This document shows positions 456 to 60,384 of a DNA stretch of 64,000 bases, one piece after another. Under the pieces are notes generated by a model. It was not told the DNA's origin and searched no databases. It saw only the letters and a program-made list of their open reading frames with translations. Position numbers and translations under genes: made by a program. The stretch covers positions 1,594,129 through 1,658,128 of the forward strand of contig OZ241907.1 in NCBI GenBank assembly GCA_965203515.1. The letters are read 5' to 3'. Source of the stretch: Spirochaetia bacterium (lineage in GTDB: Bacteria > Spirochaetota > Spirochaetia > SZUA-6 > Bin103). Each line of letters begins with the position of its first letter. Within the stretch, counting starts at the first letter, position 1.

Positions 456-2699
456 TCACTCGTCCCCTCCTACCTGCACCCGAAGCTGCTGGCCGGCCAG
501 GGTCTGGCGCGCCCAGAACAGGTTCTGGCTCGCGTCGTTGCCGCCCGCCACCAGGTTCGCGGTGCCGGTCGCGGTGGTGCCGCCGCTCGGCGCCGCCGTA
601 AAGGTCACGGTTGGCGCGGTCACGTAGCCGCTCCCCCCGTTGGTAATCTCCACCGACCGGATGACGTATTCGAAGACCGCGGTGCCGACCGCCCTGGTGC
701 CGCCGGTCGGCGCCGCCGTAAAGGAGACGGTCGGGGCGGAGGTGTAGCCGCTGCCGGGGTTGGTGACCGTCGCCGACGGAACGGCGTAGACCACGCTGGC
801 GGTGGCGGTCGCCCCGCTGCCGCCACCGCCGGAAAAGGAGACGGTGGGCGCCGAGGTGTAGCCGCTCCCCGCGGTCCCGGCCGTCACCGAGCCGACCCCG
901 TAGTTCATCACCGCGGTGCCGGTCGCCGCGGTGCCGCCGGACGGCGCCGAAAAGGTCACGGTGGGCGCCGAGGTGTAGCCGCTCCCCCCGGCGGTGACCA
1001 TCACCTCATCCGCCTCGACGACCACGGTCGCGGTGGCGGCCGCCCCGCTGCCGCCGCCGCCGGAGAAGGAGACGGTGGGCGCCGAGGTGTAGCCGCTCCC
1101 CCCGCTGGTGACGTCAACCCCGGTGATGGTGCTGCCCATCACCGCGCGGTAGCCGGCGCCGCTGCCGCCGCCGCCGGTAAAGGTGATCGTGGGGGCGGAG
1201 GTGTAGCCGCTCCCCGCGTTGGTGACGTCGACCCCTCGAATGTTGGAGTACATTCTCACGTTGAACGCTGCCCCCGTGCCTACCGTAATGGAGACCGTGG
1301 GGGGCGAGGTGTAGCCGCGCCCCCGGTTGGTGAATACGAGGCGGTCCGCCCGCCCGTCTGAATGCCTGCTCAAGGTGGCGGTTGCCCTGGTGCCGCCGGA
1401 CGGCGGCGCCGAGAGGGTCACGACGGAGGCCGACGTGTAACCGCTGCCGTCGGCGGTTTTCGGCGCGCTCTGGACGGCGTCGGGCCCCCACGCGGTGCCG
1501 GTCGCGGTGGTGCCGCCGGCCCGTTGTGGGGCCGAGAAGGTCGCGGTCGGGACCGAGGTGTAGCCGCTCCCGTACTGATTGCCGATCCTCGTCACGGAAG
1601 CGACGCTGTCGGGCCCGGTCGCGGCGGCGGCAGCTCCGCTGCCGCCGCCGCCGGAGAAGGAGACGGTGGGGGGCGAGGTGTAGCCGCTGCCGGCGGTCCC
1701 GACGTTCACCGAAGTGACGGCCCCGCGCGTCGTCGCGGTGGCGGTCGCGCCGCTGCCGCCGCCGCCCGAAATGGTGACCGTGGGCGCCCCCGTATAGCCC
1801 GCTCCCCGGGTATCGAGCGTCACCGAAGCGACGCGGCCGCTGAGCGCCGCGGTGCCGGCCGCGTCGGTGCCGCCGGCCGGCGCCGCCGAGAAGGAGACGG
1901 TGGGCGCCGAGGTGTAGCCGCTGCCGGCGGTATCCATGTCCACCGAAACGACGCTGCCGCTGATATCCGCGGTGGCGGCCGCGCCACTGCCGCCGCCGCC
2001 GGAAAAGGAGATGGTGGGCGCCGAGTTGTAGCCGGCGCCGGCGGTCGTGACGTTCACCGAACCGACGCCGCCGCCGCCCGCTACGTCGGCGGTTGCCCGG
2101 GTGCCGCCGGCCGGCGGCGCCGCCAAGGTCACGCTGGGCGCCGAGGTGTAGCCGCTGCCCCGCTCGGTAATCGTGACCGACTCGACGGTGTCCGAGGCGC
2201 CCGACTGATCCGGGGCGGTGAGCACCAGCACGATCGAGCCCGCGCTCACTTCGGCGCCAACAGTCCACTGCGCGCCTGAGATGTCGTCGGCGAAGGCCGG
2301 CGCGGTCGCCATGCTCGTGAACGGCAGTTCGTTGCCGCCGATCGACACGGTCACCGTTTCGCCCTCGGCGCCGGTGATCCCGTCCCAGGCGAACGGCTCG
2401 GAGCGGATCGTCAAGGCGCTCGGGTCCGCTGCGTCAGGCAACGGCAGCGCCGATGACCAGGCATCATCCCCGATGTCCCAGCGCTGCTCGGCCGCCGGCG
2501 AAGTCGGGGCCGGCGTGGTCGGCGACCCGCCATTGCCGCCGGCGCCTCCGCTCCCTCCATTGCCGCCCGCGCCGCCCGCGCCGGCGCCGGTCGCGACCGG
2601 CGGGGCCGTCTGCTGGCACGCCAGCAGGGCGATGCCGGTGACTGCGGCCAGCGCCAGAAGCGCGGCCTTGCTGCTCATACCTTTGACCTTCCTTGCCAC
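456..2699 (-). CDS. Lipoprotein with 14 GSGYTSAPTV-type beta repeats (paralog 1)
   Basis: RBS AGGAGG before GTG 2699 (alternative ATG 2678); signal peptide ending LLA-C; Gly-rich linker; conserved N-domain; 14 ~40-aa repeats; C-terminal NLFWARQTLAG motif shared with two other genes in the window. Confidence 0.85.
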   Translation of the reverse strand: MARKVKGMSSKAALLALAAVTGIALLACQQTAPPVATGAGAGGAGGNGGSGGAGGNGGSPTTPAPTSPAAEQRWDIGDDAWSSALPLPDAADPSALTIRSEPFAWDGITGAEGETVTVSIGGNELPFTSMATAPAFADDISGAQWTVGAEVSAGSIVLVLTAPDQSGASDTVESVTITERGSGYTSAPSVTLAAPPAGGTRATADVAGGGGVGSVNVTTAGAGYNSAPTISFSGGGGSGAAATADISGSVVSVDMDTAGSGYTSAPTVSFSAAPAGGTDAAGTAALSGRVASVTLDTRGAGYTGAPTVTISGGGGSGATATATTRGAVTSVNVGTAGSGYTSPPTVSFSGGGGSGAAAAATGPDSVASVTRIGNQYGSGYTSVPTATFSAPQRAGGTTATGTAWGPDAVQSAPKTADGSGYTSASVVTLSAPPSGGTRATATLSRHSDGRADRLVFTNRGRGYTSPPTVSITVGTGAAFNVRMYSNIRGVDVTNAGSGYTSAPTITFTGGGGSGAGYRAVMGSTITGVDVTSGGSGYTSAPTVSFSGGGGSGAAATATVVVEADEVMVTAGGSGYTSAPTVTFSAPSGGTAATGTAVMNYGVGSVTAGTAGSGYTSAPTVSFSGGGGSGATATASVVYAVPSATVTNPGSGYTSAPTVSFTAAPTGGTRAVGTAVFEYVIRSVEITNGGSGYVTAPTVTFTAAPSGGTTATGTANLVAGGNDASQNLFWARQTLAGQQLRVQVGGDE

Positions 2700-2764: not shown

Positions 2765-2787
2765 GGGGGGGGGGGGGGGGGGGGGGG
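2765..2787. repeat. G23 homopolymer (C23 on the sense strand) in the 5' leader of lipoprotein paralog 1
   Basis: Counted directly: 23 consecutive G. Confidence 0.9.
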
Positions 2788-2799
2788 AGCATGCGTTTC

Positions 2800-2828
2800 A
2801 GTATCGGCGTCGGTCGAATCGGTGTCAA
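2800..2828 (-). promoter_or_regulatory. Sigma70-type promoter for lipoprotein paralog 1
   Basis: TTGACA (2828-2823), 17-nt spacer, GATACT (2805-2800) on the minus strand; the C23 tract begins 12 nt past the -10. Confidence 0.7.
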
Positions 2829-8967: not shown

Positions 8968-10010
8968 CGCGGCCGGCGGCGCGCGGATCGGTCCGGCTCG
9001 CGCTGGCGCTCCTGTGTGCCGGCGCCCTGACCGCTTGGGCGGACCAACACGTGGCGGCGACGATCGGCGACCGGCCGGTGCACCGCGCCGATCTGCTGGC
9101 GGCGGCGGCGCTCGCCCTGGAAGAGACCGAACTGGAACGCCTGCGCTGTCAGGCCGCGGCCGACCGGCGCCACGCTGACGTCCTGCGGAGCTTTCTCCGG
9201 GACATCGTGCACCGGCGACTGCTCGACCTGGAGGCCGACCGCACCGGGACGACTGCGGACACGATGCTGGCGGCGGTCCGCGCGTCGGCGCCGCCGGTCG
9301 AGACGGAGGCGGTCGAAACGTTCTACCTGCGGAACCGGGACCGCATTCCGTACTCGCTGGCGGCGGTCGCCGATCAGATCCGCGCGTTGCTGCAGCAGCA
9401 GGCGGAGCAGCGCGCCGAGGAGGAGTTTCTCGACGGCCTGGAACGGCGGTTTGCGGTCGATTACCGGCTCGAGCCGTTTCGGATCGACGTGGACGCCGAC
9501 GGCTTCGCCGCCCGCGGGCCGGCCGGCGCGCCGGTGACGATCGTCGAGTTCTCGGACTTCGAGTGCCCGTACTGCGCCTCGATCCAGCCCGCCCTGGAGC
9601 GGGCCGGCCGGGAGTACGCCGGCCGCCTGCGGATCGTCTACCGCCACCTCCCGTTGACCGAAATCCACGCGCACGCGCAGAAAGCGGCCGAGGCGGCGCT
9701 CTGCGCGGGCGAGCAAGGCCGGTTCTGGGAGCTGCACGACCTCATGTTCGCCGAGCAGGGCGCCTTGTCCGTGCCCGATCTCAAGGACAAGGCCGGACGG
9801 ATCGGTCTTGACCGAACGGCGTTCGACGCGTGCCTCGATTCGGGCCGGCACTACGAAACGGTGCGCGCCGACGTCCGCGCCGCGGCGGCCGCCGGGGTGT
9901 CGAGCACGCCGGCCCTGCTCGTCAACGGCCGGCCGCTGCCGTCGGGCGCCGTTCCGTTCGAGACGATCGCCGCGGCCATCGACGACGAGCTCGACCGCCT
10001 GGGCCGATGA
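8964..10010 (+). CDS. DsbA-family thioredoxin-domain protein with N-terminal helical (SurA-like) region
   Basis: GTG overlaps the copA stop; signal peptide; 'VTIVEFSDFECPYC', 'GVSSTPALLVNG'. Confidence 0.88.
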
Positions 10011-10045
10011 CTTGGCAGGTCTCGCTCAAGACGCATACAGAGCGG

Positions 10046-11143
10046 TCAGCTCCGCGACGACCGCTCAACGCCCGATCGAACGTACTCCTGAAGGTGACAT
10101 GCGGCGCCGAACATCTCGACTCGCCACTGCTCGTCCGATCGAAGCCGCCGCCGCAGTCGAACGGTGCCCGGCGCCGGCGTCCGCCGCAGCCGGATGCCCG
10201 ACTCCCTGATCGTTCGGTCGACCGCATGTGCCCGGCGAGCCGGGCGGCTCGAATCGGCCCTCGCCGTGGCATACGCGCGTGAAGTCCTGGCAAGAATTCG
10301 CTGCGCATCGCGGTCGCTCGGCAGCGTACGGCCACCTCGCCGCCACGGAGCGAGCAGCGCGACGGGATCAGGAGCCAGCAACCGCTTCCACACGCGGGGT
10401 TCGTCGGCGGTCTCGGCGCCGTGGTGCGGCACCTTGAACGCGGATGCCGTGTCGGGAGGACGCGTCCTGTCCTGCAGAATCTTCAACCAGCCGCCCTTCT
10501 CCAGGTCGGAACCGAGCAGTACCGCAACGTCGCCGACCTCCACCCGAAGCACCACGGAAGCGTCGTTTGGAGAGAGGCTGGAGATTCTGGTCTCGGCTTG
10601 CCCGGTCTTTGGCATCAAACGGCCTAGATCGCTCATGAACTGGAGGAACGCTTCGTCGTCAGGTGAGAGCGCCCGGATGCGACACGTCCCCTTCTCAAGA
10701 ATATAACGGTTGGCTACTGCCAAGATGGGCGTGGATGACGCTTCCCGAAGTAGGGAAAATACCCGGTGTAGCTCGCGCACGCCGGAGCCGAAAGAAGCAT
10801 GGTGACGGTCTTCAAGAGCGTCGATCATGGCCAAAAACTCCTCGTTACACAGGACAATTGCACAGCAAAAGGATGCCTTCGCACAGACCTGCACCATCCG
10901 TGCAAGGCCTCGTATGTGGTCGTCGTGCCAGTGGGTGGCCACGATCATCGCCACTGCCTGGGACGGATCGACGCCGATGGCCCGCAGATAGTCCAGCGCG
11001 GCCGGGGCGTCGGAACGTCCACAGGAATCGACCAGAATCCAGGCGCCGTCGCCGACGTGCATGACCACGCTTTCGCCATATCCGGGACCGATGAGGGTCA
11101 GTTCGACTTCATCGGCCCTTGGGGGTTGCCCGCCGTACGTCAC
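10046..11143 (-). CDS. Metallo-beta-lactamase-fold hydrolase (ComEC/Rec2-like, putative nuclease)
   Basis: GPGYGES, VDS, THWHDDH, 'NDASVVL', 'LLGSD', 'KVPHHG'. GTG 11143 overlaps the upstream TGA. Confidence 0.85.
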   Translation of the reverse strand: MTYGGQPPRADEVELTLIGPGYGESVVMHVGDGAWILVDSCGRSDAPAALDYLRAIGVDPSQAVAMIVATHWHDDHIRGLARMVQVCAKASFCCAIVLCNEEFLAMIDALEDRHHASFGSGVRELHRVFSLLREASSTPILAVANRYILEKGTCRIRALSPDDEAFLQFMSDLGRLMPKTGQAETRISSLSPNDASVVLRVEVGDVAVLLGSDLEKGGWLKILQDRTRPPDTASAFKVPHHGAETADEPRVWKRLLAPDPVALLAPWRRGGRTLPSDRDAQRILARTSRAYATARADSSRPARRAHAVDRTIRESGIRLRRTPAPGTVRLRRRLRSDEQWRVEMFGAACHLQEYVRSGVERSSRS

Positions 11144-11730
11144 CGATCGATATCTTGTATCTTGAGCGCCTGCATCGTCTTGCGAGCCCACTCCCCGCCT
11201 TGTTGGAAATCGCGTTCGGTGAGCCGGGGAAGATCGCGGAACACGATCTGGGACACGCGTTTCTTCGTTCCGGAAGGATCACGTTGATAGCCGATGACCC
11301 AACGGAAGATACCGCCTTCCCGCAACGTTGCGGCATCTCCGTCGGAGATTTCGGCCAATGGAATGGTCGCCTCTTCCTCCTCATGCGATGACCCGGCGGT
11401 CAAATCGACCAGCCTCGCCACGAACTCGCCGCCATGTATCTCCAATACATATCCCTCCCATTCCTGCAGAGCGTGAAATGAGGATCGCGGGACATTGGCG
11501 CCGTATTGCTCAGGAAAGGAAAGCGTCGAAGGTTCGACGGCCGGTGATCTCACCGTTCTGGTGCCAAAAACGTCGTCCTGCGCAGGAGATGTCCCTGTCA
11601 GCGCCGATTGTATCGCCTCCTCGGGCACGCGGGGAACGAGAGGCGGTACTCCGCTGACCGTCTCCTCAACGGCGCCGCCCGCATCCTCTGCGAAACTGTC
11701 AGCGGTCACCGACTGGCCGGAATGCGCCAT
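11140..11730 (-). CDS. Hypothetical protein: low-complexity N-terminus plus beta-rich C-terminal domain
   Basis: Acidic/Pro/Ser-rich first ~85 aa, then LQEWEGYVLEI..FVARLVDLT..GGIFRWVIGY..RVSQIVFRDLP; tightly coupled to both neighbours. Confidence 0.75.
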   Translation of the reverse strand: MAHSGQSVTADSFAEDAGGAVEETVSGVPPLVPRVPEEAIQSALTGTSPAQDDVFGTRTVRSPAVEPSTLSFPEQYGANVPRSSFHALQEWEGYVLEIHGGEFVARLVDLTAGSSHEEEEATIPLAEISDGDAATLREGGIFRWVIGYQRDPSGTKKRVSQIVFRDLPRLTERDFQQGGEWARKTMQALKIQDIDR

Positions 11731-11735
11731 GCGCG

Positions 11736-12428
11736 CTAACCCTCCTTCGCCAACGACATGATATGATCGATGATATCATCGCTGCGCCGCAATGAAGTGT
11801 CGAAGTTGTCACAGAGGAAGCCCATCAATTGGGCGCGGCCGCGTGCGTCGTCACGGTCGATCCGGTAGTGATCATTGACGCCGACGTAGACGCCCGACCC
11901 GTGGCCGATTCGATTGGACGGTTCGACGGTAACGTTGATCTGCCCGCCCGGCGGCCTGCCTTCGGGCCGGAGCTGAGACATCCTGAGCGACGTCATGCCA
12001 CCGTGCTCGCTGTCCAACCCGAGTTTCTGACCGCAGCGGCCCCAGGGCGCAACCGGCGCCAACGTTCTGCCGATCCGGTCCCGCTCAGCCGAACTACCGG
12101 TCCGAAAGTGAACATTGCGGTTGATGCCTATCACCCTGAGCGGCGTGTGGTCGAGGAGCTCCCCGAACACGCGCGCGACGATGTCGCGCACTCGGACATG
12201 CGGCGCCTGCGCCGTGTCGGCCGAGAACCGGTCAGTCGTGACATGCAGGTGAAGCCAATCCGTCGAAAACTCGGTCACCTGCGGATGAGCGATCTCCAGC
12301 TTCGCGCTGTCCGCGGCGCTTTCCGGCAGGAGACCGTGCAGGGCAAACCACGCCGGCGTGAAGATCGCCGGGTTGAAGTCACCGCGGACGACGACAGCCA
12401 CCTCGTCGATCTCCGGCTGGATCCTCAC
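11736..12428 (-). CDS. Hypothetical protein, TIGR04255-like
   Basis: VVVRGDFNPAIFTPAWF, HTPLRVIGIN..HF, VYVGVNDH; family assignment from recalled motifs, not a search. TATACT upstream (12454-12449). Confidence 0.6.
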   Translation of the reverse strand: MRIQPEIDEVAVVVRGDFNPAIFTPAWFALHGLLPESAADSAKLEIAHPQVTEFSTDWLHLHVTTDRFSADTAQAPHVRVRDIVARVFGELLDHTPLRVIGINRNVHFRTGSSAERDRIGRTLAPVAPWGRCGQKLGLDSEHGGMTSLRMSQLRPEGRPPGGQINVTVEPSNRIGHGSGVYVGVNDHYRIDRDDARGRAQLMGFLCDNFDTSLRRSDDIIDHIMSLAKEG

Positions 12429-15867: not shown

Positions 15868-17031
15868 ATGAGCCCCGGACGCGAGTCCCGTCCCCGATAC
15901 GACGAGCGGTACAAGATGCTGTTCGCCTTCCCGCGCATGGTCGAGGACCTCGTGCGCGCCTTCTTCAGCGGCGAGCAGCTCGCTACCGTAGACTTCTCGA
16001 CGCTGCAGAAGCTGTCGGCCGAGTACGTCAGCGACGAGTTGCTGAAGCGCCACGGGGACGCCGTATGGCGGCTGCGGGTGGGAGACGAGTGGACCTGTCT
16101 GCTGGTGCTGCTGGAGTTCCAGTCGCGCGATGACTACTACATGGCGCTGCGCATCCTTGTCTACGTCAGCCTGATGTACCAGGAGTGGCTGCGCAACGAG
16201 AGTCGGAAGAGGCGGGAAGGGCAGGAAGCGCGCCGCTTGCCGGCGGTGCTGCCGGTAGTGCTCTACAACGGCACGGACCCGTGGGGGGCGCCGCAGGAGG
16301 TGGGCGAGTTGATCGCGCCGGTGGGGCAGTGGCTGGCGGCGTACCAACCGGCGCAGCGTTACTTCGTAGTGGACGAGCAGCGGGTCGGGGCGGACTCGGT
16401 GCCGCGCGGGAATTTGATGCGGGCGGTGGTGGGGCTGGAGCAGAGTCGGTCGCCGGAGGACTTGTTGCGGGTAGCGAACGCGCTGGCGGAGTGGCTGGCG
16501 GGGTCGGAGCACGATGAGTTGCGACGGGTGTTCGAGGACTGGCTGCGGAGTTCGATCGAGCAGATCAAGCGGGAGGGGGAGGAGCTGCCGGAGATGAAGA
16601 ACCTGGAGGAGGTACGGATGACGCTGGAAGAGCGAGTGAAGGAGTGGCCGGCGCAGTGGATGCGGGAAGGCCGCGAGCAAGGACTTGCGCAGGGACTTGA
16701 GAAGGGCCGTGAGGAAGGCCGTGAGGAAGGCCGTGAGGAAGGCCGTGAGGAAGGCCGTGAGGAAGGCCGTGAGGAAGGCCGTGAGGAGGGCCGTGAGGAG
16801 GGTCTTGAGCAGGGCCGCGAGCAGGGCCGCGAGCAGGGACTTGAACACGAACGAACTCTGTTGCGCCGTATGGCAGCGCTGCGGTTCGGCGCCGAGACCG
16901 GCGAGCGCGCGGCGGCTCTGATGGCGGACATCGGGGAAGCGGATCAACTGGCCGACATCGGCGACTGGCTGGTGCAGTCCGGCGACGGCGACAAATTTCT
17001 GGCACGAATAGCGTCGATCGCGCGGTCGTGA
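15868..17031 (+). CDS. Rpn/YhgA-like PD-(D/E)XK nuclease (transposase_31 family)
   Basis: YDERYKMLF, 'RHGDAVWRL', LLEFQS, 'LPVVLYNG..W', C-terminal EGREEG repeats. Confidence 0.92.
   Translation: MSPGRESRPRYDERYKMLFAFPRMVEDLVRAFFSGEQLATVDFSTLQKLSAEYVSDELLKRHGDAVWRLRVGDEWTCLLVLLEFQSRDDYYMALRILVYVSLMYQEWLRNESRKRREGQEARRLPAVLPVVLYNGTDPWGAPQEVGELIAPVGQWLAAYQPAQRYFVVDEQRVGADSVPRGNLMRAVVGLEQSRSPEDLLRVANALAEWLAGSEHDELRRVFEDWLRSSIEQIKREGEELPEMKNLEEVRMTLEERVKEWPAQWMREGREQGLAQGLEKGREEGREEGREEGREEGREEGREEGREEGREEGLEQGREQGREQGLEHERTLLRRMAALRFGAETGERAAALMADIGEADQLADIGDWLVQSGDGDKFLARIASIARS
16705..16800 (+). repeat. 12-bp tandem repeat x8 (GREE) within rpn
   Basis: ggccgtgagga(a/g) repeated. Confidence 0.9.
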
Positions 17032-17130
17032 CGGCGCTCGCGCACATGCGGCGCCACCCCGGTCGAACTCTCCTGCGCGGTACCAGGCACTCCTCTTCCT
17101 CGGGCGCGATGCCGACGTAGCGGGCTAGCG

Positions 17131-17332
17131 ACCGAGGGCTTTCAGTGACGAGTTGCTGAACGCCGCGGCGACGCCGTTTGGCGGCAGCCTGGAAAGAGGA
17201 GCTGCCGGAGATGAAAACCTGGGGGAGGTACGGATGACGCTGGAAGATCGAGTGAAGGAGTGGCCGGCGCAGTGGATGCGGGAAGGCCGCGAGCAAGGAC
17301 TTGAGCAAGGCCGTGAGCAGGGACGTCAGTAG
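17131..17332 (+). pseudogene. Internally deleted second rpn copy retaining the internal RBS/ATG (32-aa ORF 17234-17332)
   Basis: Matches ~16021-16076 and then ~16572-16720 of the intact rpn; ORF MTLEDRVKEWPAQWMREGREQGLEQGREQGRQ. Confidence 0.8.
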
Positions 17333-17343
17333 GATATTTCGCC

Positions 17344-17673
17344 TTGATGGACCGCGAAGTCTGTACGAACCAGGGATTTATCAATATCATCCCGCGGGAC
17401 GCGGGAATGACGATGTATCTCCTCTTCAATCTCATGAGTCGAGTAAACGAAATTCGCAGCAATGCGAAGGGTACGACGTACCCGGAGATCAGCAAGGGGC
17501 GCTTTCGCGCGATGGACATAGTGGTTCCGGAGTATCCGGTCGTCGCGAAATTTGCCAACTTCTCGTCGGAGGTGATTCGACAGATTCGCCTCTTGAAGCG
17601 TTCCACTCTCCACCTCACTCAAGCACGTGATTTGCTTCTGCCTCACCTGATGAGTGGCCGGATATCGGTGTGA
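17344..17673 (+). pseudogene. hsdS: Type I R-M specificity subunit, C-terminal fragment
   Basis: TNQGF, GTTYPEISKGRFRAMDIVVP, LTQARDLLLPHLMSGRISV (TRD end plus conserved region). Confidence 0.88.
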
Positions 17674-17769
17674 TTCGGAAGACCGCGGTTATCATGTCTG
17701 AATGTACGTCGACCTTCCGGCGGGCGGGACCGGGACGGCGCGGCCGGGATCTCAGCCGACCGGGATCCG

Positions 17770-18016
17770 CGAAGGCACCAAGTCGGCACCAAGTCCATAT
17801 CTTACGTAATTGCCTTGCAAGTAAGTCGATACGGGAAATCATGGCGCTTGCCGGCAGACGCGACCGCACCAAGTTCCGGCACCAAGTCATGCAACCCTTG
17901 CTCGCCGCCGGATGGCTGGGATGACCATTCCCGACAAGCCCACCAGCAGCCGCCAGCGGTACCGGCTGACCGCCGCCGGGCGGCAGCTCCTGGACGAGAT
18001 GCGGGCCGTGGAATGA
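17770..18016 (+). pseudogene. C-terminal winged-HTH fragment (Fic-like/RecG-like C-terminal domain), frameshifted
   Basis: EIMALAGRRDRTKFRHQVMQPLLAAGWL / frameshift / MTIPDKPTSSRQRYRLT. Confidence 0.7.
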
Positions 18017-32291: not shown

Positions 32292-33571
32292 CTAATCCGC
32301 TGTCTGCGCCGGAATTCTCACCAGAAGCCGCTTGCCCGCCAGCGTCTGGCGCGCCCAGAACAGGTTGTGGTATTGATCGTTGCCCTCCTCCGCCAGTATT
32401 GCCCTGGCGGTCGCGCCGCTGCCCCCTCCGCCCGTAATCGTAACGGCGGGCGGTGACGGGTAACCGCTCCCCCCGTTCGTGACCGTCACCGACGTGACCT
32501 GGGTTTGCAGCACCGCGCTGCCGGTTGCCGTCCGGGGAGAACCACCGCCCGTCGAGGTCTGAAAGGTCACGGTCGGGGCGGACGTGTAGCCGCTCCCGGG
32601 GTTCGTGATCGTCACTCCGGTTACTTTTCGGTGCGCCACCTCCATGCGGGCGGCCGCACCGCTGCCCCCTCCGCCCGAGAACGTAATGGCAGGGGGAGAC
32701 GTGAGGCTGTAGCCGCTCCCCCGGTCCCCCATGTCATAGGCGTAAACTCGACCGTTCTGTATAAGGATCGTTACGGTTGCCTGGGTGCCGCCTGAGCCGG
32801 CCGGCGGAGGGTCGATCGTCGCGGTTGGGGGAGAAGTGTAACCGCTCCCCAGGTTCGAGAAAATCGGTCTGACTACTTCGACTGTCATCGTCGTCGTTCC
32901 GGTCGCCGTGGTGCCGCCGGACGGCGCCGCCCCGAACGTCACGGATGGGCAACACCCGGAGTAATAATAGCCGCGTTCCGACCCCATCTGCACTCGCGCC
33001 ACGCCGCCGGGCCCCACCGCGGCGCCTGTTGCCGCGGTGCCGCCTGCCGGCGGCGCCGCGATCGTCACGGTGGGAACCGAGGTGTAGCCGCTCCCCCCGT
33101 TCGTGAGCCTCACCGACTCCACGAAGCCCAGGTTTTCGGTCTGATCCGGAGCGGTGAGCACCAGCGTCACCGCGCCCGCCCGAACCTCGGCGGCAACCGA
33201 CCACTCCGCGCCGGAGATGTCGGACGCGAAGACCGGCTCCGTACTCGTGCTCGTGAACGGCAGATCGTGTCCGTCGATCGAAACGTTCACTTCGGCGCCG
33301 GCGGTGATCGGCTCCCAGGCATACGTGGAACGGTTGGACACTTCGCCCACCAGATTCAGTTCATCATTACCAAAGTCCGCCGCGCTGATCGTCCAGCTCC
33401 TCTCTGCCGGTTGCGGAGTTGGCGTCGGCTCACTCGGTGGCTGCCCCCCCCCCCCCCCCCCCCTTGGGCCGGGTCGGTGGTTGTGGCGGGCGTGCGCGCC
33501 GCCGGCGCGCACGCCATCAGGGAGGCGACAGCGACGGCCAGCAACAGCGACAACCTCAAGTCTCTACCCAC
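32292..33571 (-). CDS. Lipoprotein with 6 GSGYTS-type repeats (paralog 2), frameshifted at a poly-G tract
   Basis: RBS GGAGGAGG, GTG 33571, signal peptide ending LMA-C in one frame (ORF 33356-33640); the body is in another frame (ORF 32292-33512). The span of 1280 nt is 1 nt short of in-frame, with the shift at G20. Confidence 0.82.
33444..33463. repeat. C20 (sense G20) homopolymer in the coding linker of paralog 2; out of frame
   Basis: CAA-G20-CAG; G21 or G18 would restore the frame. Confidence 0.9.
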
Positions 33572-33612
33572 GATCTCCTCCTCCCCGGTCGGCTCCGACG
33601 CCGAGCGGAGCC

Positions 33613-33640
33613 ATGGTAGCACGCGATCCCAAGCTGACAA
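33613..33640 (-). promoter_or_regulatory. Putative promoter of paralog 2
   Basis: TTGTCA, 16-nt spacer, TG-c-TACCAT (extended -10). Confidence 0.5.
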
Positions 33641-33789
33641 CCCCGGCGGCGGTCAAGCGTTAAGGTCTGACGGCGCAACGGCAGCGCCGCATCGACATCC
33701 GGACCGCCCGGGCCGCTGGTGCCGAGCGGACTTCGGCGGCGAAGACGCAGGCGGACTCGTCGCGGCGCACTTCGGCAGCGAAGGCGGCA

Positions 33790-53027: not shown

Positions 53028-54196
53028 GCCGATCCTCCGTCACCGCCGCGGCGGTGCTCCCGTATGTAGTCCCAGTCGATCCGGTATCCCATGCCCGGCT
53101 GCATCGGCACGCGCACGCAGCCGTCGGCGTCGAGCGGGTCGCACAGTTCCTGCAGGTACGGCTCCGGCGTCTCGTAATCGATGCCCGGCGCCAGCAGACC
53201 GCGCTCGTAGTAGCGGCAGGTATCCTCGCTGGTGGCGCCCAGCACCTGCAGGTTGCCGAAGCCGGCCATGTGGATCTCCAGGCGCACGCCGAACGCCTCG
53301 CAGACCGCGGCGGTCTTCAGGCAACCGGTCACGCCGCCGCGCAGCACGTCGATGCGGCTCATGTCGGCGGCCCCGCGCCGTATCCATTCGGCCCGCGTGT
53401 AGAGGCTGCCGGCCGCGATCTCCGGCGCCAGAATCGGGATCGCCAGCTCCGCCGACAGCTTCTCATACGCCGCCACCTGATACTCGTTCAGCGGGTGCTC
53501 GTACCAGACGAACCCCAACTCCTCCAGCCGCCGCCCGACCCAGACCGCCTCTTCGTACGTCCGGTACGTGCCCCACACGTCGAAGCTCAGTTCCATTTCC
53601 GGCCCTACCGCGTCGCGGACCGCCCGGCACGCGGCTACGTCATGCTCGACGTGCGACGGGCGGCCGGGATCGGGCCGGCCGGTCGCCGGGTCCCAGAAGT
53701 AGTAGGGGTGTATCTTGTAGTGGCGGTAGCCCTGCCGCTTGCAGGCGGCCGCGTGCTGCGCGTACACCTCCGGCGGCCCCAGGTTCGGGAAGGTGCTGGC
53801 GTAGGCGCGGACGCGGTCCCGGCAGCCGCCGGCCAGCTTGCAGACCGGGACGCCGAGCGTCCGCCCCTGCAGGTCCCAGAGCGCGTTGTCCAGCACGCTG
53901 ATCAGGTGCTCGGGCAAATTGGCCACCCACAGCCAGCGCCAGAACTTCTCCCGATCGAACGGGTCGTGGCCGACCACCAGATCGCGGATGCGACCGGTCA
54001 GCAGTTGGCGGTCGGCGGCGTTCAGGCCGATCTGGTCGCCATGGCCGCCGCCGCCGAAGTAGCAGCCTTCGGCTCCCTGGTCGGTGACCACGCGGGTCAC
54101 CGTCTGCAGCGTATCGGCCGGCGGGCGCACCTCCGCGTCGTGGAACCCCCGCCGCCGAACGGTGAAGGGAATCACCTGCACGTCGCTGATCTTCAT
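53024..54196 (-). CDS. Mandelate racemase/enolase superfamily protein
   Basis: DNALWDL, YKIH, WYEHP, GGVTG, LEIH, YYERG. Confidence 0.9.
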   Translation of the reverse strand: MKISDVQVIPFTVRRRGFHDAEVRPPADTLQTVTRVVTDQGAEGCYFGGGGHGDQIGLNAADRQLLTGRIRDLVVGHDPFDREKFWRWLWVANLPEHLISVLDNALWDLQGRTLGVPVCKLAGGCRDRVRAYASTFPNLGPPEVYAQHAAACKRQGYRHYKIHPYYFWDPATGRPDPGRPSHVEHDVAACRAVRDAVGPEMELSFDVWGTYRTYEEAVWVGRRLEELGFVWYEHPLNEYQVAAYEKLSAELAIPILAPEIAAGSLYTRAEWIRRGAADMSRIDVLRGGVTGCLKTAAVCEAFGVRLEIHMAGFGNLQVLGATSEDTCRYYERGLLAPGIDYETPEPYLQELCDPLDADGCVRVPMQPGMGYRIDWDYIREHRRGGDGGSA

Positions 54197-54218
54197 CCGA
54201 TACGCTCGGCCCGGCGTA

Positions 54219-54292
54219 TGGGCGATACTGGACTCGAACCAGTGACCCCTAGCATGTCAAGCTAGTACTCTAGCCATCTGAGCTAATCGCCC
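54219..54292 (-). tRNA. tRNA-Val(GAC)
   Basis: GGGCGATTAGCTCAGATGGCTAGAGTACTAGCTTGACATGCTAGGGGTCACTGGTTCGAGTCCAGTATCGCCCA. Confidence 0.95.
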
Positions 54293-54326
54293 CAGGATGG
54301 AACCTTCCGCGTGCGGCGCGGCGCTG

Positions 54327-54617
54327 TCAAGCGCCCCACGCGATCGCGTCGATCGCCGACGCCAAGTCCACGTCCAGCCGCGTGATGCGATCCCCGACGT
54401 CGTGCGTGCTGAGGCGGATGCGGACCGTGCCGTACACGTTCCATATCTCGGGGTGGTGGTTGGCCGCTTCGGCGGCGAAGGCGATGCGGACGATGAAGGA
54501 GACCGCCTCACGGAAGCTCCCGAACCGGAACTCCCGCTGCAGGGCGTCCCCGTCCCGGCTCCAGCCGTCCAGGCTCGCTACGGCCTCCCGGATCTGATCG
54601 TCGGAGAGGGCTGCCAT
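54327..54617 (-). CDS. Pterin-4a-carbinolamine dehydratase
   Basis: AEAANHHPE, LSTHD, ITRLDVDLA. Confidence 0.93.
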   Translation of the reverse strand: MAALSDDQIREAVASLDGWSRDGDALQREFRFGSFREAVSFIVRIAFAAEAANHHPEIWNVYGTVRIRLSTHDVGDRITRLDVDLASAIDAIAWGA

Positions 54618-54678
54618 CGGCACAGCCTACCCGCCGCCCGCCCCGCCCGTCCACCGGCCCTGGCCCTCCGGGACCGAC

Positions 54679-54707
54679 TTGACCCGCGTGCCGGGATGTG
54701 GTACAAG
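54679..54707 (+). promoter_or_regulatory. Putative promoter of tRNA-Asn
   Basis: TTGACC, 17-nt spacer ending TGTGG, TACAAG. Confidence 0.6.
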
Positions 54708-54745
54708 TGGATCGGCGTTGGGCGGCGCGCCGCCCAACGCCCCGA

Positions 54746-54818
54746 TCCCCTGTAGCTCAGTTGGTAGAGCGGATGGCTGTTAACCATCATGTCGCATGTT
54801 CGAGTCATGCCGGGGGAG
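54746..54818 (+). tRNA. tRNA-Asn(GUU)
   Basis: TCCCCTGTAGCTCAGTTGGTAGAGCGGATGGCTGTTAACCATCATGTCGCATGTTCGAGTCATGCCGGGGGAG. Confidence 0.95.
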
Positions 54819-55205
54819 CTACCACCGGAGGCGCAACCTGACGCGCGTTACGGCAATGCACCTGCTCCCCATCGACCGCACCGTTCGGAGGCCATGGCAT
54901 GGATCGGATTCCCACGACGATCTGGGGTGCGGGCTACCCTGTGAAGATAGGGCATGAGAAGAGGAGAGAATGACCTGCTGTATGTCGACAAGGACGGACT
55001 GGTGCACTTTCCGCCGTCTTGGACCGAGCAGGCGAAAGAGAACTGGTTCGCTAACCTGCGGGACAAGAATGAAGATGAGACGCCGCCAGGTATGCCGACC
55101 GTCTACATCACCGGCATCTATGGCGCCTCGGGGAACGTCCCACGGGTCGACTCCGAATGGGATGGTTCACTTCCCGCCGGACTGGACAGAGGAAGCCAAG
55201 GCAGC

Positions 55206-55670
55206 ATGGCTCACATAAACCGCCGTCCGGTCTGGTTCGTCGGGGCCAAGTGGCACGACCACGAGCCGCCGGATCAGACCGAACGTTTCCTGGCGGAAGG
55301 AGTATGGGAAGGATACGCCGATCAGCACCTCGATGACGTCAAGTCGGTCCAGCGCGGCGACAGGATCGTCATCAAATCGACGTACACCCGGAAGCACGGG
55401 TTGCCGTTCGACAATCGTGGAAAACCGGTCTCGACAATGATGATCAAGGCCGTCGGCGAAGTCACGGAGAACCCCCGCGATGGCCGTCGATTGAAGGTGA
55501 CCTGGAAGCCGGTGCTCCCCCCGCGGGAGTGGTACTTCTACACCTATCGCAGGACGGTCTGGAAAGTGCAGCGCTCGTCGGAAGCATCGTCGAAAGCAGA
55601 CGCGCTGATCCGGTTCGCGCTCGACGGAGAGGAGCAGGACTTCGAGACCTTCCTGAAAGCGCCATGCTAG
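55206..55670 (+). CDS. Detached N-terminal (putative DNA-recognition) domain of McrB
   Basis: VWFVGA..DQTERFLAEGVW..GDRIVIKSTYTRKHGLPFDNRG..REWYFYT; I recall this domain fused to McrB-type AAA+ proteins. The ORF is open upstream to 54954. Confidence 0.65.
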   Translation: MAHINRRPVWFVGAKWHDHEPPDQTERFLAEGVWEGYADQHLDDVKSVQRGDRIVIKSTYTRKHGLPFDNRGKPVSTMMIKAVGEVTENPRDGRRLKVTWKPVLPPREWYFYTYRRTVWKVQRSSEASSKADALIRFALDGEEQDFETFLKAPC

Positions 55671-58509: not shown

Positions 58510-60270
58510 TCACCCTTCCACTACCTGAACCCGAAGCTGCTTGCCGTACAGCGTTTGGCGCGCCCAATACAGGTTCTGGTACCGATCGTAGCCGCCCTCT
58601 GCCAGTGTTGCCGTGGCTGTCGCGGTGGTGCCGCCTGGCGGCGCGGCCTGAAAGGTAACGGTCGGGGCCAGCAGGTAACCGCTTCCCGGGTTCGTAATCG
58701 TCACTGACGCTACCTCGTATTGCATAGCCGCGGTGGCGGTTGCGGTGGTGCCGCCGGACGGCGCGGCCGTAAAGGAAACGGTGGGGGCGGAGGTGTAGCC
58801 GCTCCCCGCGTTCGTGACCGTCACTGACGCTACCTCGTATTGCATAGCCGCGGTGGCGGCCGCGGTGGTGCCGCCGGACGGCGCGGCCGTGAAGGAAACG
58901 GTGGGGGCGGAGGTGTAGCCGCTCCCCGCGTTCGTGACCGTCACTGACGCTACCTCGTATTGCATAGCCGCGGTGGCGGCTGCGGTGGTGCCGCCGGACG
59001 GCGCGGCCGCAAAGGAAACGGTGGGGGCGGAGGTGTAGCCGTTCCCACCGTTCGTGACCGTCACTGACGTTACGCCGGTTTGCAGCACCGCGGTGGCGGT
59101 CGGGGTGATGCCGATGCCGAGGGGCGCCGAAAAGGTAACGGTCGGGGCCGACGTGTAGCCGCTCCCGGCGTTCGTGATCGTCACGGAAGTGATCTGACCC
59201 GCGGAGTTCCTGGACGCGGTGCCGGTTGCGGTGGTGCCGCCGGACGGCGCGGCCGTAAAGGTCACGGACGGGATATTCAAAATGTAGCCGCTCCCGCCGG
59301 TGTTTATCGTCACCGACGCGACGCTGCCGGGACCTGCCGCGGTGCCGGTTGCGGCAGTGCCGCCGGACGGCGCGGCCGTAAAGGTGACGGACGGGACCGA
59401 GGTGTAGCCGCTCCCGGCAGTCGTTATCGTCACGGCATCGACGCTACCGGACCCCGCCGCGGTACCGGTTGCGGCAGTGCCGCCGGACGGCGCGGCCGTA
59501 AAGGTGACGGACGGGACCGAGGTGTAGCCGCTCCCGGCAGTCGTTATCGTCACGGCATCGACGCTACCGGACCCCGCCGCGGTACCGGTTGCGGCAGTGC
59601 CGCCGGACGGCGCGGCCGAAAAGGTGACGGCGGGGACCGAAGTGTAGCCGCTCCCCGCGTTCGTGATCGTCACGGCATCGACGCTGCCGGACCCCGCCGC
59701 GGTACCGGTTGCGGCAGTGCCGCCGGACGGCGCGGCCGAAAAGGTGACGGCGGGGACCGAGGTGTAGCCGCTCCCCGCGTTGGTGACCGTGACGGACTCG
59801 ACGAAGCCTGCGCTTTCCGTCTGATCCTCGGCGGTGAGCACGAGCACCACTGTGCCCGCCCGGACCTCCGGGGTGACCGTCCACTCCGCACCGGAGATAT
59901 CGGACGCGAAGACCGGCTTCGCACTCGTACTCGTGAACGGCAGCGCATGCCCGCCGATCGAAACGCGCACGTCGTCGCCGCCGGTGATCCGGTCCCAGGC
60001 ATACGGCGCCGAACGGTTGACCGTCTGGCTCAGCAGGTTGGCGTCATCACCAAAGTGCGCCGCGCTGATCGTCCAGCGCTTCTCGGCCGGCTGCGAGGTC
60101 GGCGGCGGCTCGCTCGGTGGCTTACCCCCCCCCCCCCCCCCCCCAGAGCCGGCGTCGGCGGGAGCAGCAGCGGCCGGCCGCGCCGCCTCGCCGCAGGCCA
60201 GCATGGCGATGCCGGCAGCCGCCACGAGCGCGAGCAACGCTGCCTTACGAGCCGGGTGGGCGGGGTTCAT
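58510..60270 (-). CDS. Lipoprotein with 10 GSGYTS-type repeats (paralog 3), in frame
   Basis: RBS GGAGG, ATG 60270, signal peptide ending MLA-C, G20-encoded Gly7 linker, conserved N-domain, 10 repeats, NLYWARQTLYG motif. Confidence 0.88.
   Translation of the reverse strand: MNPAHPARKAALLALVAAAGIAMLACGEAARPAAAAPADAGSGGGGGGGKPPSEPPPTSQPAEKRWTISAAHFGDDANLLSQTVNRSAPYAWDRITGGDDVRVSIGGHALPFTSTSAKPVFASDISGAEWTVTPEVRAGTVVLVLTAEDQTESAGFVESVTVTNAGSGYTSVPAVTFSAAPSGGTAATGTAAGSGSVDAVTITNAGSGYTSVPAVTFSAAPSGGTAATGTAAGSGSVDAVTITTAGSGYTSVPSVTFTAAPSGGTAATGTAAGSGSVDAVTITTAGSGYTSVPSVTFTAAPSGGTAATGTAAGPGSVASVTINTGGSGYILNIPSVTFTAAPSGGTTATGTASRNSAGQITSVTITNAGSGYTSAPTVTFSAPLGIGITPTATAVLQTGVTSVTVTNGGNGYTSAPTVSFAAAPSGGTTAAATAAMQYEVASVTVTNAGSGYTSAPTVSFTAAPSGGTTAAATAAMQYEVASVTVTNAGSGYTSAPTVSFTAAPSGGTTATATAAMQYEVASVTITNPGSGYLLAPTVTFQAAPPGGTTATATATLAEGGYDRYQNLYWARQTLYGKQLRVQVVEG
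58681..59070. repeat. 120-bp near-identical tandem repeat, C-terminal arm of paralog 3
   Basis: Sequence lines recur every 120 bp (e.g. tcactgacgctacctcgtattgcatagccg at 58701, 58821, 58941). Confidence 0.9.
59320..59790. repeat. 120-bp near-identical tandem repeat, N-terminal arm of paralog 3
   Basis: gcggcagtgccgccggacgg at 59351, 59471, 59591, 59711. Confidence 0.9.
60125..60144. repeat. C20 (sense G20) homopolymer in the coding linker of paralog 3; in frame
   Basis: TCT-G20-T-AAG encodes seven Gly codons. Confidence 0.9.
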
Positions 60271-60367
60271 GCTTCGTCCTGCCTCCTGCAGAGACATCGT
60301 GCGGATGAATGGGCGATGCGCAAGGGAATCGACGCACGACGGTGATGGCCGCGGCTTAGCAGGCCTT

Positions 60368-60384
60368 GGGGGGGGGGGGGGGGG
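60368..60384. repeat. G17 (sense C17) homopolymer upstream of paralog 3
   Basis: Counted directly. Confidence 0.9.

What the first reader, a model, noticed from the sequence alone, without database searches (positions are those of the whole stretch)
33444..33463. Poly-G ON/OFF switch: paralog 2 is frameshifted, paralog 3 is in frame at the equivalent G20 tract
Seen: both genes carry G20 just after the lipoprotein signal. In paralog 3 (60125-60144) it reads through as Gly7. In paralog 2 it separates an intact RBS and signal peptide from an otherwise intact 400-codon body, and needs +1 or -2 G. All four long homopolymers I found in 64 kb (2765, 33444, 60125, 60368) belong to these three genes. 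Established: slipped-strand mispairing at G tracts drives phase variation of surface proteins (Campylobacter, Neisseria, Helicobacter). Inference: stochastic switching among stalk variants of different length and tip.
Basis: partly seen in the sequence, partly recalled or inferred. Interest (0 to 1): 0.85.

Follow-up and report, generated by a model that had tools for sequence, protein, structure and literature searches.

The report
Poly-G switches in symbiont lipoprotein family
A run of 20 G bases just after the export signal puts one surface-lipoprotein gene out of frame, and it is one of about 20 such slippery tracts attached to a roughly 29-copy gene family in a high-GC sponge-associated spirochaete, which looks like a known kind of random on/off switch in an organism where none has been described.

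Summary
A C20 run on the + strand (G20 on the coding strand) at 33444-33463 separates a promoter-like site, RBS, GTG start and lipobox signal peptide from an open 383-codon body in another frame. It needs G18 or G21 to read through. The same G20 in paralog 3 is in frame.

- **Tracts:** the 4.1-Mb genome has 30 G/C runs of 11-31 nt, against almost none of 9-10 nt. Twenty of them sit at 5' ends of one lipoprotein family with about 29 copies.
- **Position:** 8 tracts are coding poly-G right after the lipobox, and 1 of those 8 is in frame. Twelve are poly-C in non-coding leaders, including 2765 and 60368.
- **Frame breaks:** reading frames break only at the tracts.
- **Relatives:** homologues in three other Spirochaetia MAGs carry tracts at the same two positions. 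Pairs with 95-99.5% identical flanks differ in tract length (G18 vs G10, C20 vs C14).
- **Alleles:** versions of paralog 2 in other assemblies are in frame with shorter Gly runs.

Read-level variation could not be tested, because short-read contigs stop at the tract. So the ON/OFF calls are consensus calls only.

Best reading: these are real slipped-strand contingency loci, a new member of a known kind.

The parts
33444..33463 (-). G20 homopolymer (C20 on + strand) in the 5' coding region of paralog 2, 15 codons after the lipobox Cys. Out of frame as assembled; in frame at G18 or G21.
33509..33571 (-). GTG start (33571) and 21-codon lipoprotein signal peptide of paralog 2, ending in LMAC (Cys at 33511-33509).
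   Evidence: the same signal peptide is in frame with the body in P0019, P0021 and P0023
33575..33586 (-). Shine-Dalgarno-like GGGGAGGAGGAG of paralog 2.
   Evidence: read directly
33613..33640 (-). Sigma-70-like site TTGTCA-16-TACCAT with TG extension, upstream of paralog 2 (consensus match only).
33356..33571 (-). Product of the assembled (OFF) frame: a 71-codon truncated pre-lipoprotein ending at a stop at 33356-33358.
32292..33443 (-). Body of paralog 2: 383 codons plus stop. It has the N-terminal family domain, 5 GxGY beta-strand repeats and the conserved C-terminal module.
60125..60144 (-). G20 coding tract of paralog 3, read in frame as Gly7.
58510..60270 (-). Paralog 3 (P0001, 586 aa plus stop): an intact lipoprotein with 10 GxGY repeats.
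60368..60384 (-). C17 on the coding strand (G17 on +), 98 nt upstream of the paralog 3 ATG. It lies in a non-coding leader, between two copies of a duplicated leader segment.
456..2678 (-). Paralog 1 (P0002, 740 aa plus stop): an intact lipoprotein with 15 GxGY repeats.
2765..2787 (-). C23 on the coding strand (G23 on +), 87 nt upstream of the paralog 1 ATG, in a non-coding leader.
2800..2828 (-). Sigma-70-like site TTGACA-17-GATACT. It ends 12 nt before the C23 tract, which would put the tract in the first ~30 nt of the transcript (consensus match only).

Best explanation
The G20 tract is a real, hypermutable simple-sequence contingency locus.

**Mechanism for the coding tracts.** Replication slippage changes the number of Gs. 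Because the tract lies between the lipoprotein signal peptide and the mature protein, two of every three lengths give a 71-residue truncated product (OFF) and one gives the full surface lipoprotein (ON). Paralog 2 is ON at 3n and paralog 3 at 3n+2, so the same G20 gives opposite states.

**The wider system.** This is one switch of a genome-wide set. About 29 paralogous lipoproteins share an N-terminal domain and a C-terminal module, with 0-15 beta-strand repeats between them. Eight of them carry a coding poly-G after the lipobox. Twelve carry a poly-C in the non-coding leader, which would tune transcription or translation by an unresolved route. Each cell lineage would therefore display a random, changing subset of family members.

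**Shown:**
- the anatomy of the loci;
- the non-random placement of the tracts;
- conservation of tract position across species;
- length differences between genomes;
- frames that break only at tracts.

**Inferred:**
- slippage as the cause of the length changes;
- switching within a population;
- loss of the protein in OFF cells;
- surface exposure of the protein;
- benefit to the bacterium, such as bet-hedging against phage or host recognition in the sponge.
For: 1. **Two separate length classes of run.** G/C runs in the genome fall from about 1,900 per base type at 5 nt to 3 at 9 nt and 2 at 10 nt. A separate set of 30 runs of 12-31 nt follows.
2. **Non-random placement.** Twenty of the 30 lie at 5' ends of one family, which gives 29 profile matches. 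Eight are coding and 12 are upstream.
3. **Frames break only at tracts.** One of 8 genes with a coding tract is in frame, against 18 of 18 family genes with a lipobox but no coding tract.
4. **Short runs do not break frames.** Of the 7-10-nt G/C runs with clear codon periodicity on both sides, 21 keep the frame and 1 marks a change of strand. The 6 that change frame on the same strand all coincide with a stop codon and the start of the next gene.
5. **Codon choice.** GGG makes up 18% of Gly codons and GGC 67%, so six or seven consecutive GGG codons are not what a Gly linker would use.
6. **Conservation in relatives.** Homologues in three other named Spirochaetia MAGs carry G7-G16 at -10 to -81 nt, or C8-C20 at -196 to -371 nt, from the N-domain.
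7. **Tract counts follow family size.** Counts of tracts of 12 nt or more are 25, 27 and 24 in genomes with 26, 32 and 22 family copies, and 3 in one with 5 copies. Six genomes without the family have 0-6.
8. **Same flanks, different tract (G000 vs OZ241863).** C20 vs C14 (flanks 99.5% and 99.5% over 200 nt each), C15 vs C10 (98.9% and 99.5%), G18 vs G10 (97.5% and 95.5%), G12 vs G10 (99.5% and 96.4%).
9. **In-frame alleles elsewhere.** Protein calls from other assemblies carry paralog 2's signal peptide (identical, apart from the conventional first Met) in frame with 5 Gly (P0019) or 4 Gly (P0021, P0023). A close relative has no tract (P0016). Others were called from the wrong frame, as in this assembly (P0013, P0022).
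10. **In OZ241863,** 4 of 10 coding tracts are in frame. The out-of-frame ones include short tracts (one G8, three G10). The 4 loci with interrupted tracts (L034, L036, L039, L050) are all in frame.
11. **The body is not decaying.** It is open over 383 codons here and 384 in its 92%-identical counterpart, which is also out of frame. dN/dS is 0.50, from 24.3 synonymous and 33.7 non-synonymous changes.
12. **Gene types at other tracts.** The non-family tracts sit at genes typical of such switches: another lipoprotein, an Ig-domain protein, an LRR/fn3 protein, a glycosyltransferase, a methyltransferase and a solute-binding protein.
Against: - **No read-level data.** The only runs served were short-read contigs, and in the 4 laid none bridges 33433-33475. 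Heterogeneity within a population is therefore unproven.
- **Consensus lengths are uncertain.** A 20-nt homopolymer is hard to size in any assembly. The sequencing technology of this genome is unknown to me.
- **A possible technical signal.** G000 tracts are longer than their OZ241863 counterparts in all six best-matched pairs, which could be technical.
- **Open frames are weak evidence here.** At 70% GC, long open frames arise by chance (97 ORFs of 250 aa or more in 64 kb).
- **Weak constraint.** dN/dS of 0.50 is only moderate constraint.
- **Mismatch repair is present.** MutS1 and MutL are intact, unlike in Campylobacter or Helicobacter (recalled).
- **Tracts are unusually long.** At 12-31 nt they exceed the 7-11 nt reported for T. 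pallidum (PMC7864442, passages). At such lengths RNA polymerase slippage could blur ON and OFF.
- **No expression or localisation data.**
Confidence: 0.65

Rival explanations
1. Homopolymer-length error. The gene is really in frame and constitutively expressed, the tract is simply a poly-Gly linker after the lipid anchor, and the assembly mis-sized a 20-nt run by one base.
For: Long homopolymers are the weakest point of every sequencing chemistry (established knowledge). All frame breaks sit exactly at tracts. G000 tracts are consistently longer than their OZ241863 counterparts. The tract could not be sized from reads.
Against: Out-of-frame states also occur at short tracts in OZ241863 (one G8 and three G10). 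No frame break was found at 7-10-nt runs in G000. A linker would use GGC (67%) rather than GGG (18%). Lengths differ by 2-11 nt between genomes with near-identical flanks, far more than a one-base error. Only 5 of 18 uninterrupted coding tracts in two genomes are in frame, close to the one-third expected if frame is not maintained.
Confidence: 0.12
2. Leaky rather than binary. RNA polymerase or ribosome slippage on a 20-nt G run yields a mix of frames from any DNA length, so all tract-bearing paralogs are expressed at reduced, graded levels and the DNA frame matters little.
For: Transcriptional slippage on long homopolymers is established for A/T runs (recalled). The tracts here are far longer than classical switches. 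The bodies of out-of-frame genes stay open, with dN/dS of 0.50.
Against: No RNA data could be examined. The reading is compatible with, and not exclusive of, DNA-level switching. It does not explain why interrupted tracts are always in frame (4 of 4).
Confidence: 0.13
3. Decay. Paralog 2 and the other out-of-frame copies are young pseudogenes of an over-expanded, horizontally spread family, and the tracts are mutational hot spots with no regulatory role.
For: Seven of 8 coding-tract genes are out of frame. The family includes clear fragments (bodies of 34, 78 and 174 aa). Paralog 2 is absent from the syntenic site of the closest relative, G006. High GC keeps dead frames open.
Against: Promoter-like site, RBS, start codon and signal peptide are intact. 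There is no second lesion in 383 codons, here or in the 92%-identical counterpart. dN/dS is below 1. In-frame alleles exist elsewhere. Tract position is conserved across four genomes, which implies the tract is retained rather than lost by interruption.
Confidence: 0.07

Closest known systems
Poly-G tracts at tpr, tp0126 and other outer-membrane protein genes of Treponema pallidum (PMC7864442; passages read)
   Same: It is also a spirochaete. G homopolymers are attached to a paralogous family of envelope protein genes, some upstream of the ORF and some within it. Tract length varies within and between isolates, and the authors interpret this as phase variation.
   Different: In that paper the tracts are 7-11 nt. 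The studied ones act in promoters, either through -35/-10 spacing or from just upstream of the transcription start. The organism is a low-to-mid-GC mammalian pathogen. Here the tracts are 12-31 nt in a 70% GC sponge associate. The protein family is unrelated and unnamed (no Pfam or NCBIfam hit). Eight tracts are translational switches placed right after a lipobox. The upstream tracts are poly-C on the coding strand, and their position relative to the promoter is unresolved.
Intragenic poly-G/C contingency loci of Campylobacter, Neisseria and Haemophilus (PMC8355987, PMC5084427, PMC3025981; search listing and start of abstracts only)
   Same: Many hypermutable G/C tracts per genome, both intragenic and intergenic. 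They are enriched at surface-structure genes, glycosyltransferases and methyltransferases. The ON/OFF switch works by frameshift.
   Different: Those tracts are about 8-13 nt (recalled), in low-to-mid-GC pathogens, and some of those species lack MutS/MutL (recalled). Here mismatch repair genes are intact. Two thirds of the tracts (20 of 30) serve a single lipoprotein family.
Variable lipoprotein families of Mycoplasma, such as Vlp with promoter poly-A
   Same: A multigene family of repeat-containing surface lipoproteins of variable length, each copy with its own homopolymer switch, giving combinatorial display.
   Different: Those use A tracts in promoters of AT-rich, wall-less bacteria. There is no sequence relationship. 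Here two tract positions are used.
Bordetella fim promoter poly-C and the Mycobacterium tuberculosis glpK 7C tract (recalled; not read)
   Same: Homopolymer-based reversible switching in high-GC bacteria.
   Different: Those are single genes with much shorter tracts. They are not a paralogous lipoprotein repertoire.

Membership tests
Simple-sequence contingency locus (phase variation by slipped-strand mispairing) | A homopolymer or short repeat far longer than composition predicts | tested here: met
   44 G10 words in the window against 0.21 expected. Genome-wide, only 3 and 2 G/C runs have 9 and 10 nt, but 30 have 11-31 nt.
Simple-sequence contingency locus (phase variation by slipped-strand mispairing) | The tract is placed so that a length change alters the reading frame or promoter function of a gene | tested here: met
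   For 33444 the tract lies between signal peptide and body, which are in different frames. The same layout occurs in 8 paralogs. For the upstream tracts an effect on expression is only inferred.
Simple-sequence contingency locus (phase variation by slipped-strand mispairing) | Tract length polymorphic between close relatives while the flanks are conserved | tested here: met
   Six G000/OZ241863 pairs with flanks 93-99.5% identical differ by 2-11 nt. Protein alleles of paralog 2 carry 4 or 5 Gly, and a close relative has no tract.
Simple-sequence contingency locus (phase variation by slipped-strand mispairing) | Length heterogeneity within one population, with reversible high-frequency switching | not testable with these tools
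   Only contigs were served. In the 4 runs laid they end at 33432 and restart at 33476.
Simple-sequence contingency locus (phase variation by slipped-strand mispairing) | Expression of the product follows tract length | not testable with these tools
   No RNA or protein data could be examined.
Bacterial lipoprotein (Lgt/LspA substrate) | Positively charged n-region, hydrophobic h-region and a lipobox ending in Cys; processing enzymes encoded in the genome | tested here: met
   Pattern match L-M-A-C (paralogs 2, 3) or L-L-A-C (paralog 1) after a hydrophobic stretch, found in 27 of the 31 family loci listed. lgt and lspA match above their cut-offs. No dedicated signal-peptide predictor was run, and surface exposure is untested.
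Promoter-spacer type homopolymer switch (Neisseria porA, T. pallidum tp0126) | Tract lies between the -35 and -10 hexamers, so that its length sets the spacing | tested here: inconclusive
   In 6 of 12 upstream-tract loci, a sigma-70-like pair scoring 9 or more of 12 lies wholly upstream of the tract and ends 12-27 nt before it. No transcription start sites are available.
Any named protein family for the lipoprotein itself | Significant match to a curated profile or a solved fold | tested here: inconclusive
   Pfam: nothing below E 0.25. NCBIfam: none. Foldseek against PDB: no hit with E of 0.001 or less. VIA-align: best Z 7.4 over 62 residues to a phage tailspike N-terminal part, below the level the tool calls meaningful. 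Atlas: best score 0.82, within the noise range.

The most novel reading that the evidence does not exclude
Sponge-associated high-GC spirochaetes may run a large set of phase-variable genes built on the longest homopolymer switches yet seen (12-31 nt), with mismatch repair intact.

- About 20 independently switching members of a roughly 29-copy lipoprotein repertoire use two tiers of control: poly-G after the lipobox and poly-C in the leader.
- The repertoire itself is exchanged between co-occurring lineages. Family loci are 92-99.5% identical between genomes whose ordinary genes are 74-85% identical.

This would be the first contingency-locus system described in a sponge symbiont. It would imply that variable surface display, against phage or host phagocytes, is part of life inside an animal without adaptive immunity.
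Probability: 0.45. Interest if true: 0.75.

Novelty: new member of a known kind. Interest (0 to 1): 0.6.

Why it matters
Homopolymer phase variation is textbook biology for mucosal pathogens facing adaptive immunity. Finding about 30 such tracts, two thirds of them on one unnamed lipoprotein family, in an uncultured sponge-associated spirochaete would extend the strategy to a symbiont of an animal without antibodies. It would point to phage pressure or host-cell recognition as the driver.

It also matters for annotation. Gene callers split or truncate these genes, as the wrong-frame and internal-start protein calls show. The family would then be scored as pseudogenes.

Four full-text searches found no paper that links sponge-associated bacteria with homopolymer phase variation.

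Tried and rejected
- **Read-level tract lengths.** The look-up of sequencing runs listed 20 holders in 9 studies, all kept as contigs. Read laying on X1, X4, X7 and X9 gave no contig across 33433-33475, and the tool itself skipped the repeat. This is no evidence either way on length or heterogeneity.
- **JGI metagenomes.** An exact 36-nt flank pattern and the family profile found nothing.
- **Upstream poly-C tracts as poly-Pro coding.** I tested whether they sit inside an N-terminally extended ORF. Start codons in frame with the main ORF do occur just before the tract in several loci. But the stretch between tract and signal peptide has no codon periodicity: GC by codon position is 0.62/0.66/0.64, against 0.63/0.61/0.90 in the body. 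Rejected; the leader is non-coding.
- **Poly-C pairing with the G-rich Shine-Dalgarno region.** The 120-nt leader of paralog 1 folds worse than all 200 shuffles (z +3.7). No support.
- **GC3-periodicity frame test across the long tracts.** Uninformative for them: 28 of 30 lacked a clear coding signal on both sides. It was useful only as a control for short runs.
- **Fold and family assignment.** Pfam, NCBIfam, Foldseek against PDB, VIA-align wide and the ESM Atlas gave nothing significant.
- **Insertion signature of paralog 2.** I looked for target duplications or shared boundaries against the empty site in G006. Only a 14-nt match was found. Nothing can be concluded.
- **Chimeric join or two-colour poly-G artefact.** Rejected, because independent protein calls span signal peptide, Gly run and body, and homologues in three other assemblies carry tracts at the same place.
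- **Supplementary files** of papers were not consulted.
Full report
**Observation.** The + strand carries C20 at 33444-33463. The window holds four long G/C runs, at 2765-2787, 33444-33463, 60125-60144 and 60368-60384. They give 44 overlapping G10 words against 0.21 expected from shuffles. The window is 63-75% GC.

On the minus strand paralog 2 has these parts:
- a sigma-70-like site at 33640-33613;
- the RBS GGGGAGGAGGAG;
- a GTG start at 33571;
- a 21-residue signal peptide ending in LMAC;
- 14 more codons, then G20.

The starting frame then runs into a stop after 71 codons. The 383-codon body (32295-33443) lies in another frame. Counting, the body is in frame only if the tract has 3n bases, that is G18 or G21.

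Paralog 3 (58510-60270, P0001) has the same layout and the same G20. One extra base after its tract makes 3n+2 the in-frame class, so it reads Gly7 and is intact.

Paralog 1 (456-2678, P0002) has no coding tract. Its G23 at 2765-2787 is a C23 on the coding strand, 87 nt upstream of the ATG. The G17 at 60368-60384 is likewise a C17, 98 nt upstream of the paralog 3 ATG.

**The genome.** The window lies in a single 4,135,234-bp contig of 69.5% GC. G/C runs drop from about 1,900 per base type at 5 nt to 3 at 9 nt and 2 at 10 nt. A separate population of 30 runs of 12-31 nt follows.

A tblastn search and a profile of 23 N-terminal domains (A1; 29 matches) show that the three genes belong to a family of about 29 loci. 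The family has these features:
- an N-terminal domain of about 115 aa, with mean column identity 62%;
- 0-15 GxGY beta-strand repeats;
- a conserved C-terminal ...NL[FY]WARQTL.GK.L.V... module.

One search lists 31 loci, fragments included, and sorts them by tract:

| Class | Loci | Tract lengths |
|---|---|---|
| Uninterrupted poly-G on the coding strand, between lipobox and N-domain | 8 | G12, G13, G18, G18, G20, G20, G21, G22 |
| Poly-C on the coding strand, 150-380 nt before the N-domain | 12 | C15-C31 |
| No tract of 8 nt or more | 11 | none |

Paralog 3 has both a coding and an upstream tract. One of the 12 upstream-tract loci is a family remnant. In all, 20 of the 30 long tracts belong to this family.

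**Frames.** Among the 8 coding-tract genes only paralog 3 is in frame. All 18 family genes that have a recognisable lipobox but no coding tract are in frame.

As a control for general homopolymer error, I looked at G/C runs of 7-10 nt with clear codon periodicity on both sides. Twenty-one keep the frame and 1 marks a change of strand. The 6 that change frame on the same strand all coincide with a stop codon and the start of the next gene.

GGG is a minority Gly codon (18%, against 67% for GGC). A run of six or seven GGG codons is therefore a property of the DNA, not of a Gly linker.

**Relatives.** The family profile matches 4 of 40 related genomes besides G000: G003 (26 matches), G006 (5), G014 (32) and G019 (22). 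In the named species collection the matches are four records titled 'MAG: Spirochaetia bacterium'. None was found in the JGI metagenome collection.

Of the 39 loci fetched:
- 10 carry G7-G16 at -10 to -81 nt from the N-domain;
- 16 carry C8-C20 at -196 to -371 nt;
- the three loci from the fourth record carry none.

Tracts of 12 nt or more per genome follow the size of the family:

| Genome(s) | Family matches | Tracts of 12 nt or more |
|---|---|---|
| G003 | 26 | 25 |
| G014 | 32 | 27 |
| G019 | 22 | 24 |
| G006 | 5 | 3 |
| Six genomes without the family | 0 | 0-6 |

In OZ241863, 4 of 10 coding tracts are in frame, and the out-of-frame ones include one G8 and three G10. The loci with interrupted tracts (L034, L036, L039, L050) are all in frame.

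**Length changes on a constant background.** I blasted 200-nt flanks of every G000 tract against the foreign loci. Pairs with near-identical flanks have different tracts:

| G000 tract | OZ241863 tract | Left / right flank identity |
|---|---|---|
| C20 | C14 | 99.5% / 99.5% |
| C15 | C10 | 98.9% / 99.5% |
| G18 | G10 | 97.5% / 95.5% |
| G12 | G10 | 99.5% / 96.4% |
| G22 | G11 | 95.1% / 93.2% |
| G21 | G12 | 93.5% / 96.5% |

At the protein level, representatives from other assemblies carry paralog 2's signal peptide (MGRDLRLSLLLAVAVASLMAC, identical apart from the conventional first Met) in frame with the body. P0019 does so through 5 Gly; P0021 and P0023 through 4 Gly. P0016, a close relative with a different signal peptide, lacks the tract. 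P0013 and P0022 were called from the wrong frame, exactly like the 406-aa ORF in this window.

So the tract is a real part of one gene, and its length differs between populations.

**Is the OFF gene alive?** The closest DNA match of paralog 2 is in G014 (92%). That copy has G16 and is also out of frame. The two bodies are open over 383 and 384 codons. They differ by 24.3 synonymous and 33.7 non-synonymous changes, giving dN/dS of 0.50. My own rough binomial estimate puts the excess of synonymous changes over neutral expectation at about p = 0.01. This is an inference, not a tool result. The constraint is moderate, and in a 70% GC genome open frames are weak evidence.

**What could not be shown.** All runs that hold the locus are kept as contigs. 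Labels include sponge metagenome and marine metagenome, across 9 studies. In the four runs laid, contigs end at 33432 and resume at 33476. There is therefore no information on tract length within a population, and the ON/OFF states are consensus calls on 20-nt homopolymers from an assembly whose technology I do not know. G000 tracts are longer than their OZ241863 counterparts in all six best-matched pairs, which might be technical.

**The upstream tracts.** The leader between the tract and the signal peptide shows no codon periodicity (0.62/0.66/0.64, against 0.63/0.61/0.90 in the body). It is therefore non-coding, even though in-frame start codons occur before the tract in some loci.

In 6 of 12 loci a sigma-70-like pair scoring at least 9 of 12 lies wholly upstream of the tract and ends 12-27 nt before it. 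That would place the tract at the start of the transcript rather than in a promoter spacer. Without mapped transcription starts this remains unresolved.

The paralog 1 leader is not unusually structured. Upstream of paralog 3 the leader is partly duplicated around the C17 tract.

**The protein.** There is no Pfam or NCBIfam match. The repeat region has many distant relatives, some named 'beta strand repeat-containing protein'. The N-domain occurs only in MAG-derived proteins.

An AlphaFold2 model of the paralog 2 body, built from a 40-sequence alignment, is all-beta with one C-terminal helix and has mean pLDDT 85.4. It has no significant PDB match by Foldseek. Matches by VIA-align are only sub-threshold: best Z 7.4 over 62 residues, to phage tail proteins. 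lgt and lspA are present. Surface exposure is inferred.

**Context.** MutS1 and MutL are intact, so hypermutability would rest on tract length alone.

Ordinary genes of the window are 92-94% identical to G006, 88-93% to G003 and 74-85% to G014 and G019. Yet family loci are 92-99.5% identical to G014. Paralog 2 is missing from the otherwise syntenic MFS/ThuA-like interval of G006. This points to exchange of family genes between lineages.

**Comparison and verdict.** The mechanism proposed is the classical one. The nearest described case is the set of poly-G tracts of Treponema pallidum (PMC7864442, passages). Those are 7-11 nt long, act in promoters and belong to an unrelated family.

The differences here are:
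- the host setting;
- the 70% GC background;
- tract lengths of 12-31 nt;
- the concentration of tracts on one unnamed lipoprotein family;
- the use of two tract positions.

Searches of the paper library and a term search in a paper on sponge spirochaetes (PMC11656744: 0 occurrences of 'lipoprotein' or 'phase varia') found no description of this.

I rate it a new member of a known kind, real as a sequence feature, with switching itself still to be demonstrated.

Noticed in passing
G000:C1 outside the window (L072-L080): 360525, 1728335, 1874342, 2001352, 2051142, 3054095, 3415727/3415757, 3605600, 3636389: Ten long tracts are not attached to the family. One (G21) lies inside a frameshifted Methyltransf_23 gene. 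One (G18) lies mid-gene in a frameshifted SBP_bac_5 solute-binding protein. One (C18) comes right after the lipobox of a different, frameshifted Pro/Thr/Glu-rich lipoprotein. Others lie upstream of a He_PIG Ig-domain protein, an LRR+fn3 protein and a family-2 glycosyltransferase. Three were not assigned.
   Followed up: partly
window 32319-33582 versus G014:C1:1984287-1985551; G006:C2:1095640-1097919 (L085): Paralog 2 is 92% identical at DNA level to a gene of G014, whose ordinary genes are only 74-85% identical to this genome. It is absent from the syntenic MFS/ThuA-like interval (about 200 nt) of the much closer G006. Other family loci reach 97-99.5% identity to G014. This suggests horizontal exchange of the family between sponge-associated lineages.
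   Followed up: partly
window 33659-33773: There is a strain-level indel just upstream of the paralog 2 promoter-like site. Contigs of X1, X7 and X9 replace 33660-33768 with 17 other letters, and a contig of X4 skips 33679-33772 (tables 5 and 5c).
   Followed up: no
window 60255-60286 / 60392-60423 and 60308-60324 / 60451-60467: The 5' leader and start region of paralog 3 is partly duplicated (81% and 94% identity, spacing 137-143 nt). The C17 tract lies between the two copies.
   Followed up: partly
G000:C1:3415727-3415773 (L078 1528-1574): A C24 run and a G17 run on the same strand are separated by 6 nt. They form a potential long G:C hairpin or cruciform upstream of a glycosyltransferase gene.
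   Followed up: no
L073 (G000:C1:1726800-1729900): A YhgA-like transposase domain (Transposase_31, E 4e-39) lies in the same long open frame region as the tract-bearing methyltransferase.
   Followed up: no
G000:C1:3482886-3482915 (L015): In a tandem pair of family genes, the C20 leader tract of the second gene begins 8 nt after the stop codon of the first. The stop overlaps an ATG (TGATG), so read-through or coupling between the two may matter.
   Followed up: no
window 10001-12000, 16001-18000, 54001-58000: These segments have markedly lower GC (62-65%, against 70-75% around them). The last one directly adjoins paralog 3. Their content was not examined.
   Followed up: no
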